A stretch of DNA of 64,000 bases from Planctomycetota bacterium (GCA_045863855.1 BTVV01000014.1:17690-81689); one strand, 5' to 3'. Shown: positions 46,401 to 52,400, counted from the stretch's first letter. Numbers: made by a program.

Positions 46401-49400
46401 CACGTTCGTCTCTTTCGGCATCGAGCATGCGCTTTTCGGCCAGCATCCGGCGCTGAGCCGGCTGATCAATCTGCTGCTGCATTTGGCCACCGCGCTGCTG
46501 CTCTGGCGGATCATCACCAAATTCCTGCCGCGCATCGAGACGAATTACGCCGCGTGGGCGGGCTTGCCGGTGCTGCTCTTCGCTGTGCATCCCACGAACG
46601 TCGAATCGGTGGCGTGGATTACCGAGCGTAACAATGTGCTGGCGGCCTTCTTCGCCATGGCGGCGTTGTGCGTGCTGGCGCGCCGCCATCCGTTTTCGGA
46701 AGCCGAAGCGGCCTTCGAACCGCCGGGCGTGGGGCGCTGGCTGGGGGCTTGGGGGCTCTTCGCGTTGGCCTGCCTGTCTAAAGGCAGCGCAGTCGCTTGG
46801 GCGCCGGCGTTGATCGGATTCGAGGTGCTGATGGTGCGGGGCTCCCTCGTGGGCCGGTTGGGCCGAGCGCTGAGCTTCCTTGTATTGGGCGGCCTGTGCG
46901 CTTGGGTCAACATGAAGACTTACGCTTCGGTCGATGTCGGGCCGGTTCAAGGGGACTTCGGCAGGTACTTCATGACCGCCGTTTCGGTGCTGGGGTATTA
47001 CGCACTCAATTTGTGCTGGCCGTTCAAACTGGCCTACGCGTACGCCGTGCCTCCGGTGCTCACACCTACGGAGACCCCATTCCTGATCGGGCTCGCGGTG
47101 GCGGTCGTGGGCGTCGTGGCGCTTTTCTGGGCCGTCTTGCAGACACGGGCGGCGCTGCTGATCGTGCTCTGGGTCTTGGGCTCGTTGGGATTGTTCCTGA
47201 TGCCGCGCGGACCGGGACTGGCTCCGCTGATGCACGATCGGTTCCTGTATTGGGCGCTTCCGGGGATCGCGATGGGTCTGGCGCTGATGCAGGACGGTCT
47301 GTTCTGCCGCTTCGGTTACGTGATGGCCTTTATGGAGCAGGTCGCGCGCGGTTTCGCGCTGGTCCTGTATATCGCATTGGCCGGACTGTTCGGCTGGCAA
47401 GCCTGCAACCGCAGCGCCGTCTTTAGCGACGAGATCGCGCTCTTCGAAGACAGCATTCGCAAAGAACCGCGCAGCGGGTTGGGGCGGTACTGGCTGGCCG
47501 ATCAGTACGTCGTGACGGTGCTGGAGGGCGGCGAGGGCCTCAGCAAGGAAGCGAAGATCGAATATTTGGAGAGCGCGTTGGAGCATATCCACGCGGCGCG
47601 TCTGGGCGTGAACATCGAACGGCATCCCGCGCCGCTGCTGCTGGAGCACCGGGAAGGCACGATCCTGTTCATGCTGGGTCAGTTGGATAAAGCGGTTCCG
47701 TTCTTCGAAAAGATGCTGGCCGTTCCAGCCGAGAAGCTGCGTGAGAACGAGAAGCCGTCCATATTCGAAGCGCATTACGCGCTGGCCGAGATTGCGCGCA
47801 TGCAGAATCCTTCGGATTGGTCAAAGGCGATGCACCATTTAGATGCGGCCTTGAAGGATCGGCCCACGCATACTCGGACGCTGCAACTGAAAGCTCAGGC
47901 GCTGGAAGCCATGAATCGAATCCCCGAAGCCATAGAGGTTTATCGTATCCTGAAGGAGCAGCCGGAGGCCGCCGAGGCAGCCTCGAAGGCGCTCTTGCGG
48001 TTGGCTCCTGCACCTTGATAGGTGGCAGTGTCCGCAAAGGCGCCGTGTGCACTTTATAAAGCACGTGCCGATCATTGGTTATGGAAATGTATTCGCTCTT
48101 GACTGAACTTGTCCAGATTACTAGAAGTGAACAGGAAATTTCCATCTGCGTACTCCGGTAGCGGTCGTGTACAAGGTATTCACCTTGCGCATGACCTGGC
48201 CGCCCGCCCGAATGAGAGGACGCGCATGCTCTGCCGACAACTCTACGAAGTGCAGGAGAAGTACGGGTACGTGCCCGAGAAGGAGATGCGGGAGCTGGCC
48301 CGCCGCAACGGGATCCCGGTTTATGAGGTTTTCGGTGTCGCGACGTTCTACCCGGGCTACCGCACGACGCCGCCGCCGAAGGCGAGCATCAACGTGTGCC
48401 GGGACTTCCCGTGCCATTTGCGCGGCGCTCCGAAGCTGCGCCAGAAGATCGAGGACTTGGTTCGCGAAAGCGGCGTACCGGGCATCGAACTGGGCGGGGT
48501 GAGCTGCCTGGGGCAGTGCGACGGCAGTCCGGCGGTGCAGATCAACGACGCGTCGTACGCGCGAAAAAGCGAAGACGAGATTCTGAAGCTGGTTCAGGAA
48601 GCGATCGCGGGAAAGAAGATCGCGGAGCAGCATTTCGGCCCGATGGCGAAGGGTCCGTTCAAGACCAACCCTTACGCGGAAGGCGAGAAGTACGGCGCGC
48701 TGAAGGCGCTGGCGAAGTCGAAGGACTTCGAGGGCGTGATCGCACAGTTGAAGGCCGCGAACCTGAAGGGGATGGGCGGCGCGGGCTTCCCCACGGGGGT
48801 GAAGTGGGAAGGCGTGCGCAAGTGCCAGAACGACGAGAAGTACGTGGTCTGCAACGCGGACGAAGCGGAAGTCGCGACGTTCAAGGACCGCGAGATCATG
48901 AAGTCGCTGCCGCACCTGGTGGTTGAAGGCATGGCCATCGCGGCGCTGGTGACGGGCGCCTCGCAGGGCTACATCTACATCCGCCACGAATACCACGACC
49001 AGATTCACAGCATGGAAGAGGAGATCAAGCGCGCGCGCGAAGCGGGCATCCTGGGGAAGGATTGCTGCGGGAGCGGGCAGAAGTACGACATGGAAGTCTT
49101 CGTCAGCCCCGGGGGGTACGTGCAGGGCGAAGAGAGCGCGCTGCTGGAGGCGATCGAAGGCAAGCGCGGCCAGCCGCGGGTGAAGCCTCCGTTCCCGGTC
49201 TTCGTGGGCCTGTGGGGCAAACCCACAGTGATCAACAACGTCGAGACGCTGGCGTACGTGCCCGCAATCCTGGTCAAGGGCGTGGACTGGTTCAAAGGCC
49301 AGGGCAAGAACGGAAGCGAAGGGTTGAAGTGGATCGGCGTGAGCGGGCACGTGAAGAATCCCGGCGTCTTCGAAGTGCCGATGGGGACGACGTACCGCGA

Positions 49401-52400
49401 AGCGATCTACGAACTGGCCGGCGGAATCCTGGGCGACAAGAAGCTGAAGGGCTTCGCACCGTCGGGTCCGTCGGGCGGCTTCCTGCCGGCCTCGATGGTC
49501 GACCTCTCGATGGACTGGAAGAAAATGGCCGACGCGGGAAGCATGCTGGGTTCGGGCGCGATCGTGGCCATCGCCGAAGGGACAGACCTGGTCGAGTTGG
49601 CGCTGAATGCGACGCAGTTTTACCGCAACGAGTCGTGCGGGAAGTGCGTGCCGTGCCGCGTGGGCAGCCAAAAGCTGGTGGACCTGCTGCACCGGATGGC
49701 CAAGAAGGAAGGGAAGCGCGAGGACTTCGAAACGATCCAGCGCCTGAGCGACACGATGCTGATGACGAGCATCTGCGGGCTGGGCCAGGTGGTCTCCGCG
49801 CCGATCGATTCGGTGCTGAAGCACTTTAAGGGCGAAGTGGACGCCAAGATCAAGTAGGCGTTCGGATCCATTCGTACGGCAGGCGCCGCGAACCGTTTCG
49901 ACCGAGGAATCCGACCGATGAATGCCCCATCCGCCACTGTGACGCTGACGATCGACGGGAAAGACGTGACGGTGCCGAAAGGCACCACGATCTGGGAAGC
50001 CGCGCAGGGCAACGGGATCGACGTCCCTGTGCTGTGCCACAAGCCTCCGCTGAATCCCGTGGGCGTCTGCCGTGTCTGCGTCGTGGACGTGGGCGCTCGC
50101 GTCTTCGCGGCGTCGTGCGTGCGCGAAGCCGAGAACGGTATGAAGGTCACGACCAGTCACGAGCGGCTGGAGCGCAACCGCAAAACGCTGGTCGAAATGC
50201 TGCTGGCCGACCATCCGGCGCCCTGCGAGAAGCACAAGCAGACACATACCTGCGAACTCGAGAAGCTGGGCGAACGCTATGGGATCCTGCAGCCGCTGCC
50301 GGCTGGCGCGCCGGCGCCGGAGCCGCGCTTTTGGAGCCCTACGTTCATGTCCCGCGGCGTGGCGCCGGACGACGCTCATTTCGCCGAAGACCAGAGCCCG
50401 CGGCGCTTGCAGAAGGGGACCGACTTCTCGAACCCCTCCATCGCCATCGACCATCGCGCGTGCATTCTGTGCGACCGCTGCGTGCGCGCCTGCACCGAAG
50501 TGAAGCACAACAACGTGATCGGGCGGATGGGCAAGGGCTACAACGCGAGCATCTCGTTCGACGTGAACCTGCCGATGGGCGGTTCGAGCTGCGTGAACTG
50601 CGGCGAGTGCATGATCTCGTGCCCGACCGGCGCGATCACCAGCCGCCAGGAAGCCGGCGTGCAGCTCGAGACAGGCGACAAGCTGACCGTCGACGAGATG
50701 CTGCAGATCCCGATCTTCCAGGGGATCAGTTCGGAATTCCTGAAACGCAACGAAGGCTCGGTGGTGCGCCGTAAGTTCAAGAAGGGCGACGTGATCTGCC
50801 GCGAAGGCGAGTTCGGCAGCACGGCGTTTTACCTGCTTAAGGGCACCGCGGACGTGTTCCTGACTACGCCGATGGCGCACGTGAAGAGCGACAAGAAGCA
50901 GTCGGCCGGGTTTTTCAGCAAGTTCAAGCATCTGCTGGCCGGCAAGAAGGAAGATCCGCGCGAAGAAGGGGAGCGCAAGTTCATCCCCATCGACGCTCCG
51001 GTGGACCTCTCGCTGGACAACCCGATCGCGAAGCTGAACGAGGGCGACCTGTTTGGCGAAATGACCTGTCTGACGTTCCAGCCGCGTTCGGCGACGGTGC
51101 GCGCGGCCGAGGACTGCGAGATGCTGGAGATGCTGCGCAGCGTCTTGCAGGTACTGCAGAAGAACAAGAAGTTCCGCGACCAGCTCGACGCGAACTACCG
51201 CGAGCGCGCGCTGGGGCAACATCTGCGCAGCGTACCGATCTTTTCGGCGATCGACGATCCGAAGTTCATCGACCAGCTCAAGGCGCGCGTGGAACTGCTG
51301 CACTACGATCCGGGCCAGCCGATTATCCGGGAAGGGGAGGAGGGCGACGCCTTCTACCTGATCCGGGTCGGCTGCGTGAAGGTGAGCAAGAGCCTTCCGG
51401 GCGGCGAGATGGTGCTTTCGTACCTCTCGCGCGGCGAATATTTCGGCGAAATGGCGCTGCTGGACCGCAGTCCGCGTATGGCGTCGGTCATCGCTCTGGA
51501 CCATGTGGAAGTGGTGCGCATCCGCAAGACCGACTTCGACTTCATGCTCGGCTGGTTCGAGGACCTGCGGCCGAAGCTGGAGGCCGAGGCGAAGAAGCGC
51601 AAGGAAATGACCGAACGGATGACGCGCATGGCGCCGTCCACGAGCCTGGACGATTTCCTGGCTCAGGGGCTGATGCACGCGCAGAGTCTGCTGCTGCTGG
51701 ACCTGGAGCGCTGTGTGCGCTGCGACGAATGCGTGCGCGCGTGCAGCGATGCCCACGACGGCGTGACGCGGCTGGTGCGCGAAGGCCTGCGCTTCGACAA
51801 GTACCTCGTCGCGACCTCGTGCCGAAGTTGCCTGGACCCGCTGTGCATGGTTGGCTGTCCGGTGGGCTCGATCCGGCGCAAGGAATCGCTGGAAGTCATC
51901 ATCGAAGACTGGTGCATCGGCTGCGGGCTATGCGCGCAGCAGTGCCCCTACGGCAACATCAACATGCACGAGTTCGAGTCGAACAAGGCCGACCCGTCGC
52001 AGCCGGGCGTGAAGAAGGCCACGGTGGACCGCAAAGCGACGCTGTGCGATCTATGCACAGACCTGAAAGAGCCGAGTTGCGTGTACGCCTGCCCGCACGA
52101 CGCGGCGCATCGCGTGAACGCGCGCGAATTCTTCACGGATCTGACGATCAAGCAGGGCTGATTTCCGGCGCGGACCGGTTGGTCTTCCGCGGCCTCGATG
52201 CGAACCATCGAGGCCGTTTCATTTCACGGAGGGTTCGGCATGCCGCATACGGCGCATCGCCATCCGCTCACGCCGCTCGAAGTGCCGGGGCTGCTGGTTT
52301 TCTGGGACTTCCAAGAAGCCGGGGGCGAGGCGCGCGTCTCGCGCGGGGCGCAGCGCTATGCGCTTTGCGAGCAGAATGGCCCGGTCGAGCGTGTCGAATC

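What a model noticed while it worked through the whole genome (the two positions that open the first line are those of the whole stretch)
48226..52161. NADH-diaphorase-coupled PtdE variant: NuoE-NuoF fusion beside a HoxU-like/cNMP/ferredoxin protein
g01156 (NuoE fused to NuoF) and g01157 (HoxU/HydA-type N-terminal Fe-S module, two cyclic-nucleotide-binding domains, DmsB-like 4Fe-4S module) form a two-gene NADH diaphorase whose C-terminal two thirds is PtdE of the ptd porin-cytochrome system. It suggests a second, NADH-fed and possibly cNMP-gated electron entry into the Ptd conduit, whose other genes lie on C7 and C9.
Evidence so far: Domain hits HoxU E 2e-44, CRP 4e-19, DmsB 2e-12, NuoF 4e-139, NuoE 2e-21; 65% identical to the short PtdE g00799. 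Pair adjacent in G006, G007, G013, G014, G018 and Complex1_51K lies next to a cNMP gene in 1752 GTDB genomes. 3419 database clusters at E 1e-100, the top 120 nearly all full length. In metagenome loci the pair is directly followed by the PtdF homolog in 2 of 5 long loci that have both genes; short PtdE loci carry PtdF, decaheme, porin.
(Added by a program. Inside this text positions count along the whole contig: contig position 17,690 is position 1 of the stretch shown here. "Call 12" and the like, gene names such as g00115 and contig names such as C1 are that model's own, and its searches are not shown. The text may have been shortened before it was handed on; [...] marks where a part breaks off. 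The agent that wrote the report below was given it as the finding of a first reader that could run no searches.)

Follow-up and report, generated by a model that had tools for sequence, protein, structure and literature searches.

The report
NADH enzyme with cyclic-nucleotide iron-sulfur wire
Two neighbouring genes encode an NADH-oxidising enzyme whose iron-sulfur wire is interrupted by two intact cyclic-nucleotide sensor domains; in most relatives they sit beside a two-haem membrane protein and multihaem cytochromes, so they probably send electrons across the membrane under second-messenger control, which nobody has tested.

Summary
The pair is real: a NuoE-NuoF fusion (543 aa, non-bifurcating NADH type) and a 747-aa protein made of a HoxU/FdhA-type Fe-S module, two cNMP domains with invariant binding residues, and a 16-Cys (four-cluster) DmsB-like module homologous to PtdE. 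Corrections: (1) it is usually the only PtdE found, so not a 'second' entry; that holds only in the window's own clade, where the pair is detached from ptdF; (2) the partner cluster here shares only the PtdD/E/F/G core with ptd/PCC4: no PtdA, PtdB or PtdC, but another beta-barrel, an LVIVD multihaem and an HbpS-like protein; (3) the diaphorase came from an NAD-dependent formate dehydrogenase and stands where other clusters have a FAD oxidoreductase. Best reading: an NADH-fed, NOX-like outward electron route, perhaps cNMP-gated; no biochemistry exists. The parent cluster is published (PCC4 2017, ptd 2024); this variant was not found in ten paper searches. The scan noted this family on other genomes at least eight times. 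New variant of a known kind.

The parts
48226..49857 (+). nuoEF fusion gene, 543 aa: FMN/NADH flavoprotein subunit of the diaphorase
   Evidence: NCBIfam NuoF 4e-139, NuoE 2e-21; Pfam Complex1_51K, SLBB, NADH_4Fe-4S, 2Fe-2S_thioredx; aligns end to end (2-535) with the fused beta subunit of tungsten formate dehydrogenase 7e5z/7vw6 B
48235..48600 (+). NuoE-like domain, [2Fe-2S] ligands C58, C63, C94, C98
48664..49854 (+). NuoF-like domain: FMN, NADH site, one [4Fe-4S] (C471, C474, C477, C517); non-bifurcating signature T218, K220, Y298, SGPSG in place of GGPSG, no extra C-terminal clusters
   Evidence: criteria from PMC7311640 passages
49918..52161 (+). long PtdE-like gene, 747 aa: HoxU/FdhA-N module, cNMP domain 1, cNMP domain 2, DmsB-like module; soluble, no signal peptide or membrane helix
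49933..50652 (+). HoxU/FdhA-type N-terminal module: [2Fe-2S] (C40, C51, C54, C67) and 2x[4Fe-4S] (C182-C192, C225-C235); closest to N-termini of NAD-dependent formate dehydrogenase alpha subunits
   Evidence: 51% identity to FdhA of L053 (Fdh-alpha above cut-off); quick tree; PDB profile hits HydA, FdsA, W-FDH alpha
50212..50253 (+). degenerate His-ligated cluster site H99-x3-C103-x2-H106-x5-C112: the second Cys of the usual motif is replaced in every long form examined
   Evidence: H99, C103, C112 in 60 of 60, position 106 Q31/H26/G2/E1; 91 of 96 keep the three ligands, 5 lose the motif
50689..51156 (+). cNMP-binding domain 1, phosphate-binding cassette G380-E381...R390-S-A; carries a poorly modelled 48-residue insertion (aa 317-364) with an amphipathic-looking segment
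   Evidence: Pfam PF00027; E+R kept in 64 of 64 long rows; pLDDT under 50 in the insertion
51220..51555 (+). cNMP-binding domain 2, cassette G510-E511...R520 (R-T-A in 52 of 60 rows; R-M-A here)
   Evidence: E+R kept in 61 of 63 long rows that cover it; Foldseek best matches are PKA-R/PKG tandem CNB domains
51685..52122 (+). DmsB/NrfC-like module with 16 conserved Cys, i.e. four [4Fe-4S] clusters (the ptd preprint says two)
   Evidence: 15 Cys in 85 of 85 rows, one in 84 of 85; DmsB 2e-12
52189..52225 (+). terminator-like hairpin (12 pairs) with T-rich tail 28 nt after the stop; suggests a two-gene unit here
   Evidence: 2 such sites found, 4.6 expected in shuffles, so the position and not the count is the argument; fold z -2.5

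Best explanation
The two proteins form a soluble, non-bifurcating NADH dehydrogenase. NADH reduces FMN; electrons pass through the NuoF [4Fe-4S], the HoxU-type [2Fe-2S] and 2x[4Fe-4S] clusters to the four-cluster DmsB-like module, which docks on the cytoplasmic face of PtdF, a five-helix di-haem b membrane protein (two W-x3-H-x13-H motifs). PtdF hands electrons across the inner membrane to the decahaem PtdG and on to periplasmic or outer-membrane multihaem proteins. In this genome ptdF-ptdG lie on C7, so the pair would act in trans, next to a short PtdE that has no NAD(P)H input of its own. The module was taken once from an NAD-dependent formate dehydrogenase and fills the place that a FAD oxidoreductase (PtdC, or a TrxR-like domain fused to PtdE or PtdF) fills in sister clusters. 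The two cNMP domains probably bind cAMP or cGMP and may switch the wire by moving the two Fe-S modules (probability about 0.45 for real gating). Outward flow is favoured by the NADH potential and by the membrane potential and spends proton-motive force, so the likely role is a regulated valve for surplus reductant or a supply of reductant to the periplasm, as in NADPH oxidases and ferric reductases. Shown here: domains, motifs, synteny, ancestry. Inferred: NADH use, all contacts, direction, gating, role.
For: Cofactor motifs complete. Non-bifurcating NADH signature in 80 of 80, 86 of 86 and 88 of 88 aligned NuoF rows (criteria). nuoEF directly upstream in 69 of 73 metagenome loci, overlapping the next start by 4 nt in 45 of 83 loci, and fused with it in one 1483-aa record, P0174. 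ptdF directly downstream in 63 of 66 (47 of 49, 24 of 26, 6 of 8 after dereplication at 90, 80, 70%), decahaem downstream in 47 of 53; shuffled orders keep the same genes together (L101, L115, L151, L157). All 5 tested genomes of the window's clade have one ptdF elsewhere; in G011 the long form is the only PtdE found and ptdF has none upstream. Four His of PtdF invariant in 84 of 84. PtdC-type flavoprotein in 0 of 80 long-form loci, not found in G000 nor in 4 of 5 other long-form genomes (one weak partial hit), but present in L049-L052; TrxR-like domain fused to PtdE in L055 and to a PtdF-like domain in L175, L178, L181. cNMP cassette kept in long forms; six class III cyclase matches in G000, five strong. 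Soluble transhydrogenase SthA (above cut-off) in 13 of 80 loci and beside the decahaem gene in 4 of 4 fetched loci.
Against: In the window and its clade no ptd gene is adjacent (6 of 6 genome loci of the clade plus L074), and that clade mostly keeps a short PtdE, three times directly before ptdF (L057, frameshifted; L059; L060), so the detached pair may have another acceptor. The 80 metagenome loci are the best of 703 and mostly one lineage, so they are not independent. Many short-PtdE clusters show no NAD(P)H module within the fetched DNA (8 of 8 short loci), so PtdE can apparently work without one in cis. The structure model is weak in the Fe-S modules (mean pLDDT 65.8, pTM 0.51) and says nothing on how electrons cross the cNMP domains. 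PtdF has only sub-threshold Pfam hits (ferric reductase 13 of 84, cytochrome b561 12 of 84). He et al. 2017 read the same membrane protein as quinone-active and the flow as inward.
Confidence: 0.55

Rival explanations
1. The pair plus PtdF is a non-pumping NADH:quinone oxidoreductase: PtdF reduces quinone, and the multihaem cytochromes are a separate branch that exchanges electrons with the quinone pool.
For: He et al. 2017 propose a quinone-active cytochrome b role for this membrane protein. In 6 loci of Tepidisphaerales/Phycisphaerales and 3 metagenome loci (L106, L122, L144) nuoEF-long-ptdF stand without the decahaem gene next to them. DmsB/NrfC-like modules usually dock on quinone-reactive anchors (own knowledge).
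Against: The decahaem gene follows ptdF in 47 of 53 metagenome loci and is present elsewhere in 5 of 5 genomes where it is not adjacent. The H-x13-H pair on helices 3 and 5 is the ferric reductase/NOX arrangement, which crosses the membrane without quinone (own knowledge). G000 has a complete-looking complex I gene run on C53.
Confidence: 0.2
2. In this lineage the duplicated pair has left the conduit and serves another acceptor (a ferredoxin, a molybdoenzyme or hydrogenase subunit encoded elsewhere) or acts mainly as an NADH/cNMP sensor.
For: No ptd gene within the fetched flanks in the window's clade, variable neighbours, a terminator-like hairpin after the pair; a short PtdE coexists in 6 of 7 genomes of the clade; G000 has a formate dehydrogenase alpha-like gene on C162 whose start is cut by the contig end.
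Against: The PtdE part is 61-63% identical to ptdF-adjacent long forms with all 16 Cys kept; ptdF is present in 5 of 5 genomes of the clade tested; G011 has only the long form (completeness of that assembly not given).
Confidence: 0.15
3. Flow is inward: an extracellular or periplasmic donor (Fe(II), sulfur, humics) reduces the cytochromes and the pair makes NADH.
For: PCC4 was found in Fe(II) oxidisers and drawn as an inward conduit. Diaphorase modules are reversible (own knowledge).
Against: Moving electrons from c-type haems to NAD+ runs against both redox potential and membrane potential, and the pair has neither a pumping module nor the bifurcation signature (thermodynamics from own knowledge). 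SthA and transketolase neighbours fit surplus reductant better.
Confidence: 0.07
4. The cNMP domains are structural spacers or dimerisation units and do not regulate anything (compatible with the best explanation otherwise).
For: PtdE proteins of the four loci with PtdC (L049-L052), and of L047 and L048, lack the cassette Arg in both domains yet keep the domains.
Against: Long forms keep Glu and Arg in 64 of 64 and 61 of 63 rows at about 45-85% identity, which points to selection for ligand binding.
Confidence: 0.35

Closest known systems
ptdABCDEFG operon (bioRxiv 10.1101/2023.11.21.568154; passages and section 8 read, supplements not seen)
   Same: PtdE (cNMP domains + 4Fe-4S), PtdF, decahaem PtdG and tetrahaem PtdD homologs: 33, 30, 25 and 26-31% identity to a cluster that fits the published description (L050).
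   Different: No PtdA, PtdB, PtdC found in G000 or in 80 long-form loci; N-terminal HoxU module and nuoEF gene added; different beta-barrel, an LVIVD multihaem protein and an HbpS-like protein; intact cNMP cassettes; four, not two, clusters in the C-terminal module. The preprint states the function as unknown and names no NuoF-type partner in the parts read.
PCC4 gene cluster, subgroup II (He et al. 2017, PMC5566968; abstract, passages, section 17 read; supplementary Figure 4 and Table 5 not readable)
   Same: Inner-membrane protein with five helices, SGxxG and two W-x3-H-x13-H motifs (84 of 84 rows; SGxxG 73, TGxxG 10, NGxxG 1), an Fe-S gene upstream of it, 4- and 10-haem cytochromes, a porin gene.
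   Different: No pentahaem cytochrome in the C7 cluster; other porin family; NADH diaphorase input; the authors hypothesise inward flow to the quinone pool and do not mention cNMP domains (0 hits for cNMP or cyclic in the main text).
NAD-dependent formate dehydrogenases (tungsten FDH alpha/beta, PDB 7vw6/7e5z; FdsABG, PDB 6tg9) and HoxEFU/HydBC/NuoEFG diaphorase modules
   Same: Fused NuoE-NuoF beta subunit aligned end to end; alpha-type N-terminal Fe-S module.
   Different: The Mo/W catalytic domain is replaced by two cNMP domains and a DmsB-like module; the His-ligated cluster motif lacks its second Cys.
NADPH oxidases and ferric reductases (FRD superfamily)
   Same: Works like one: cytoplasmic NAD(P)H flavin module, two trans-membrane b haems held by H-x13-H pairs on helices 3 and 5, a ligand-sensing regulatory module (Ca2+ EF hands in NOX5; recalled).
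   Different: FMN/Fe-S input, not an FNR-type FAD domain; long soluble insertion between helices 4 and 5; probable acceptor is a decahaem cytochrome; no significant structural match.
PKA regulatory subunits and PKG tandem CNB domains
   Same: Tandem CNB-A/CNB-B fold and cassette residues (Foldseek best E 2e-18).
   Different: Flanked by Fe-S modules instead of a kinase; about 20% identity.

Membership tests
ptdABCDEFG operon | PtdE: cNMP-binding protein with 4Fe-4S clusters | tested here: met
   hhalign probability 100, 489 columns, 33% to L050 PtdE; reference chosen by fit to the published description, not the authors' sequence
ptdABCDEFG operon | PtdF, PtdG (decahaem), PtdD (tetrahaem) homologs | tested here: met
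   present on C7 (and a second PtdD-like gene on C61), not in the window; E 6e-14, 2e-15, 4e-10
ptdABCDEFG operon | PtdA pentahaem with C-terminal beta-sandwich | tested here: not met
   only a partial 26% haem-region hit on C145; 0 of 80 long-form loci; G000 is 93.9% complete
ptdABCDEFG operon | PtdB porin | tested here: not met
   no tblastn hit in G000; the C7 barrel family versus PtdB: hhalign probability 0.1 (PtdB alignment has only 3 rows)
ptdABCDEFG operon | PtdC FAD/NAD(P)-binding oxidoreductase | tested here: not met
   only FHA-domain hits in G000; 0 of 80 loci; none in 4 of 5 genomes, one weak partial hit
PCC4 cluster (He et al. 2017) | Inner-membrane protein with SGxxG and two W-x3-H-x13-H motifs | tested here: met
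   C7 gene: W81/H85/H99, SGIFG, W294/H298/H312; 84 of 84 rows
PCC4 cluster (He et al. 2017) | Porin plus 4-, 5- and 10-haem cytochromes in one cluster | tested here: not met
   C7 has a 10-motif, a 3-motif c554-like and a 10-motif LVIVD protein, no pentahaem; barrel identity rests on Atlas look-alikes of the alginate-export type
Non-bifurcating NADH-dependent diaphorase (NuoF/FDH type) | T/S at HydB 232, K/S/A at 234, Y at 367, no GGPSG, no extra clusters | tested here: met
   T218, K220, Y298, SGPSG here; 80 of 80, 86 of 86, GGPSG in 0 of 88
Non-bifurcating NADH-dependent diaphorase (NuoF/FDH type) | NADH (not NADPH) oxidation, FMN and cluster content | not testable with these tools
   needs purified protein
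Electron-bifurcating HydABC-type enzymes | A/E232, M234, F367, GGPSG, C-terminal 2x[4Fe-4S] on the beta subunit | tested here: not met
Complex I, Hox hydrogenase, formate dehydrogenase | Membrane arm, NiFe or H-cluster subunit, or Mo/W domain in the protein or operon | tested here: not met
   scores below NuoG, HoxU and hydrogenase cut-offs, matches limited to aa 1-245; no such genes adjacent in the window
cNMP-binding (CNB) domains | G-E...R phosphate-binding cassette in both domains | tested here: met
cNMP-binding (CNB) domains | Actual binding and nucleotide preference | not testable with these tools
   R-T-A in domain 2 of most rows resembles cGMP-preferring sites (recalled), R-S-A in domain 1 resembles CRP (recalled)
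Ferric reductase/NOX trans-membrane domain (for PtdF) | Fold and Pfam match | tested here: inconclusive
   His pattern met; Pfam hits sub-threshold; confident model (pLDDT 89) without a significant Foldseek or VIA match; Atlas nearest cluster carries an automatic ferric-reductase-like name

The most novel reading that the evidence does not exclude
A cyclic-nucleotide-gated, quinone-independent electron valve: cAMP or cGMP binding to PKA-like tandem domains inside an Fe-S wire switches direct transfer from NADH through a di-haem b protein to a decahaem cytochrome and an undescribed outer-membrane module (alginate-export-like barrel, LVIVD multihaem, HbpS-like protein), common in soil Acidobacteriota and some Planctomycetota.
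Probability: 0.3. Interest if true: 0.85.

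Novelty: new variant of a known kind. Interest (0 to 1): 0.62.

Why it matters
PCC4/ptd clusters have been listed since 2017 with no known donor, direction or function. This variant names a donor (NADH), argues for outward flow, and yields a soluble two-protein enzyme that can be assayed in vitro. If the cNMP domains gate the wire, a second messenger would control a redox chain at the protein level, which I did not find described in the ten paper searches made; it would also give abundant soil Acidobacteriota a candidate route for extracellular electron transfer or reductant disposal.

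Tried and rejected
Fusion in L045: the 1309-aa open frame upstream of the long gene is an off-frame extension, nuoEF is a separate overlapping gene. Search for longer PtdF fusions found none among 8000 candidates, although such fusions are in L175, L178, L181, so that search is weak. Foldseek and VIA searches with the PtdF model gave only generic helical matches (best Foldseek E 1.5; NOX5 membrane domain at E 8; best Z 9.7 to a designed bundle). A novel two-His cluster at aa 99-112 was considered and dropped: His106 is in only 18 of 96 rows and 5 rows lose the motif. No sigma-70-type promoter on + upstream. Both careful tree searches did not finish; only quick trees are cited (22 long-branch or near-copy rows left out). 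RNA runs hold only contigs; lack of cover over 52321-52922 in four runs proves nothing, and runs X6-X9 hold small shares, so no habitat is claimed. Papers 10.1101/2022.05.06.490989 and PMC10734462 (passages read) do not describe this cluster. Searches returned no paper. In 5 genomes with only a short PtdE, similar nuoEF genes were found in 2, one alone and one near a formate dehydrogenase gene, so their input stays unexplained. Place look-ups among earlier notes gave nothing.

Full report
1. Observation. The window holds two + strand genes, 48226-49857 (543 aa) and 49918-52161 (747 aa), 60 nt apart, with high GC3 (0.88, 0.86) and ribosome-binding boxes before both starts. A 12-pair hairpin with a T-rich tail lies 28 nt after the second stop. 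The neighbours (a TPR membrane protein, a LamG protein, an O/P-type porin on the other strand) are unrelated to redox. In four RNA runs from three studies, contigs of a strain about 96% identical bridge the junction between the two genes; contigs cannot show a transcript and the flanks are covered too, so this is only a weak hint of expression.

2. First gene. NuoE and NuoF are fused; it aligns end to end with the beta subunit of tungsten formate dehydrogenase (7e5z/7vw6 B, 2-535). Cluster ligands are complete. By the criteria of PMC7311640 (passages read) it is non-bifurcating: T218 and K220, Y298, SGPSG instead of GGPSG, no extra C-terminal clusters; the same holds in 80 of 80, 86 of 86 and 88 of 88 aligned relatives that cover each site.

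3. Second gene. Residues 6-245 are a HoxU/FdhA-type module. Its closest relatives here are N-termini of formate dehydrogenase alpha subunits (51% to L053; Fdh-alpha above cut-off); in a quick tree the modules of all 38 long forms are one group (SH-aLRT 96) next to four FdhA termini (99), apart from NuoG (the careful search did not finish). So the diaphorase was most likely recruited once from an NAD-dependent formate dehydrogenase, the Mo/W domain being replaced (inference). The His-ligated cluster motif has lost its second Cys in all rows and is missing in 5 of 96, so it is probably off-path. Two cNMP domains follow; the cassette Glu and Arg are kept in 64 of 64 and 61 of 63 long rows, and the model's best structural matches are PKA-R and PKG tandem domains. 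In contrast, the PtdE of the four loci that show PtdC (L049-L052) and of L047 and L048 lack the Arg in both domains, while L160 keeps both and L161 one. G000 has six class III cyclase matches. The C-terminal module has 16 conserved Cys, i.e. four clusters. The AlphaFold model is poor in the Fe-S parts (pLDDT 65.8, pTM 0.51) and does not show how the two Fe-S modules meet.

4. The pair belongs together. nuoEF lies directly upstream in 69 of 73 metagenome loci with at least 300 nt upstream (7 dropped; of the 4 misses, two have nuoEF-ptdF-ptdG-long, one is cut, one has a 470-nt gap). The genes overlap by 4 nt in 45 of 83 loci. One database record, P0174 (1483 aa, one contig), is a single-chain fusion of all domains.

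5. Link to PtdF. After dereplication at 90, 80 and 70% the ptdF counts are 47 of 49, 24 of 26 and 6 of 8; most loci are one lineage and are not independent. Among 27 long-form genome loci (Acidobacteriota and several Planctomycetota families), 26 have at least 2 kb downstream: 13 have ptdF directly next, 4 elsewhere in the locus, 1 has other cluster genes, 8 have none, six of these in the window's clade (L007 rests on an unpublished genome, G005). Short forms are followed by ptdF and the decahaem gene in 8 of 8 loci. PtdF has four invariant His in two W-x3-H-x13-H motifs (84 of 84), the pattern He et al. 2017 described for the PCC4 membrane protein and compared with ferric reductase/NOX domains. 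Its model is confident (pLDDT 89) but has no significant structural match.

6. 'Second entry' is local. Where the pair sits beside ptdF it is the only PtdE found (5 of 5 genomes; also G011, G164, G463). In the window's clade the pair is detached, and a second PtdE exists in 6 of 7 genomes; the PtdE parts of these long and short copies group together (SH-aLRT 99, quick trees). In G000 and its nearest relative neither copy is beside ptdF; in the other genome of the genus the short copy before ptdF is split by a frameshift; in G011 ptdF has no PtdE upstream and the long form is the only one found. All 5 tested genomes of the clade keep one ptdF. Action in trans is therefore likely but not shown.

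7. Which conduit. Loci L049 and L050 carry a cluster that fits the published ptdABCDEFG description; I used L050 as reference because the preprint's supplements could not be seen. G000 shares PtdE, F, G and D homologs at 25-33% identity but shows no PtdA, PtdB or PtdC. Its C7 cluster has instead a different barrel protein (no similarity to PtdB; alginate-export-like look-alikes), a 1456-aa LVIVD multihaem protein, an HbpS-like protein and cytochrome c maturation genes. The same set accompanies long forms elsewhere (LVIVD 31, barrel 20, HbpS-like 16 of 80 loci, many too short to tell; PtdA, B, C 0 of 80), and the barrel gene is present in 5 of 5 genomes tested.

8. Interchangeable inputs. PtdC is a FAD oxidoreductase-FHA-ferredoxin protein. 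In L055 a TrxR-like FAD domain is fused to PtdE; in L175, L178 and L181 a ferredoxin and TrxR-like domain are fused to a PtdF-like domain, two of them followed by a PtdG-like gene. NuoEF plus HoxU is thus one of several NAD(P)H-flavin modules attached to the PtdE/F/G core. Against a strict rule, many short-PtdE loci show no such module nearby. SthA occurs in 13 of 80 loci (7 after dereplication at 85%) and beside the decahaem gene in 4 of 4 fetched loci; transketolase follows ptdF in 6 genome loci; G000 has both genes side by side on C156.

9. Mechanism. Inferred path: NADH, FMN, Fe-S chain, DmsB-like module, two b haems, decahaem cytochrome. From general knowledge, outward transfer is downhill in redox potential and aided by the membrane potential, but spends proton-motive force; that suits a regulated valve or a reductant supply and gives a reason for a gate. 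Confidence 0.55 for the route in this genome, about 0.45 for true gating. Rivals: quinone reduction at PtdF (0.2), another acceptor in this lineage (0.15), inward flow (0.07).

10. Novelty. The parent cluster is in print twice (PMC5566968; bioRxiv 10.1101/2023.11.21.568154), without function. I found no description of the NuoEF-coupled form in ten searches; the library lacks most subscription papers, the journal version of the preprint was not held, and supplementary Figure 4 and Table 5 of He et al. gave no readable content, so they may show related architectures. Earlier notes of this scan describe the same family on other genomes at least eight times; two of them gave me the PCC4 paper. They are not counted as support. 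Verdict: real, new variant of a known but uncharacterised kind, directly testable; interest 0.62.

Noticed in passing
G000 C156 (L064:1584-5458): Transketolase (72% to the type that follows ptdF in Tepidisphaerales) and sthA are divergent neighbours; both recur in ptd-like loci of other genomes.
   Followed up: partly
L175, L178, L181: Single proteins joining a membrane anchor, 2x[4Fe-4S], a TrxR-like FAD domain and a PtdF-like domain, two followed by a PtdG-like cytochrome: a compact NOX-like version without cNMP domains.
   Followed up: partly
L010/L149, L148, L153, L057: Short PtdE forms with an N-terminal FHA-like domain (label recalled, not scanned) and low-complexity linker; PtdC also has FHA domains, and P0176 joins PtdE to a Ser/Thr kinase, hinting at phospho-control of the same wire.
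   Followed up: no
P0175: A divergent PtdE with a long Ala/Pro/Lys-rich insertion is recorded from Planctomyces sp. SH-PL14 (name from the database), a possible cultured host for the family.
   Followed up: no
window 50866-51009: Insertion in cNMP domain 1 with an amphipathic-looking segment and a conserved IPxDA(P)xDL motif; could touch the membrane or a partner.
   Followed up: partly
L057:6135-8218: The short PtdE before ptdF in the other genome of the genus is split by a frameshift (pseudogene or assembly error).
   Followed up: partly
window 57123-59393 (-): SulP-STAS-cNMP transporter 5 kb downstream, kept in L003 and L004; another cNMP-domain gene near the pair.
   Followed up: no
window 36806-38815 (+): Looks like a lysyl-tRNA synthetase with an extra N-terminal helical segment resembling the PheS N-terminus and an insertion near the C-terminus (recalled resemblance, not tested).
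   Followed up: no
window 53068-57048: O/P-type porin with an N-terminal coiled coil, divergent from a probable PhoX-like phosphatase gene (second label recalled).
   Followed up: no
G000 C191:6074-8612 and C61:23374-24807: A second nuoEF fusion with a HoxU-like gene cut by the contig end, and a second c554-like cytochrome 57% identical to the C7 one.
   Followed up: no
L059, L060: Two tandem copies of the decahaem-like gene after ptdF.
   Followed up: no
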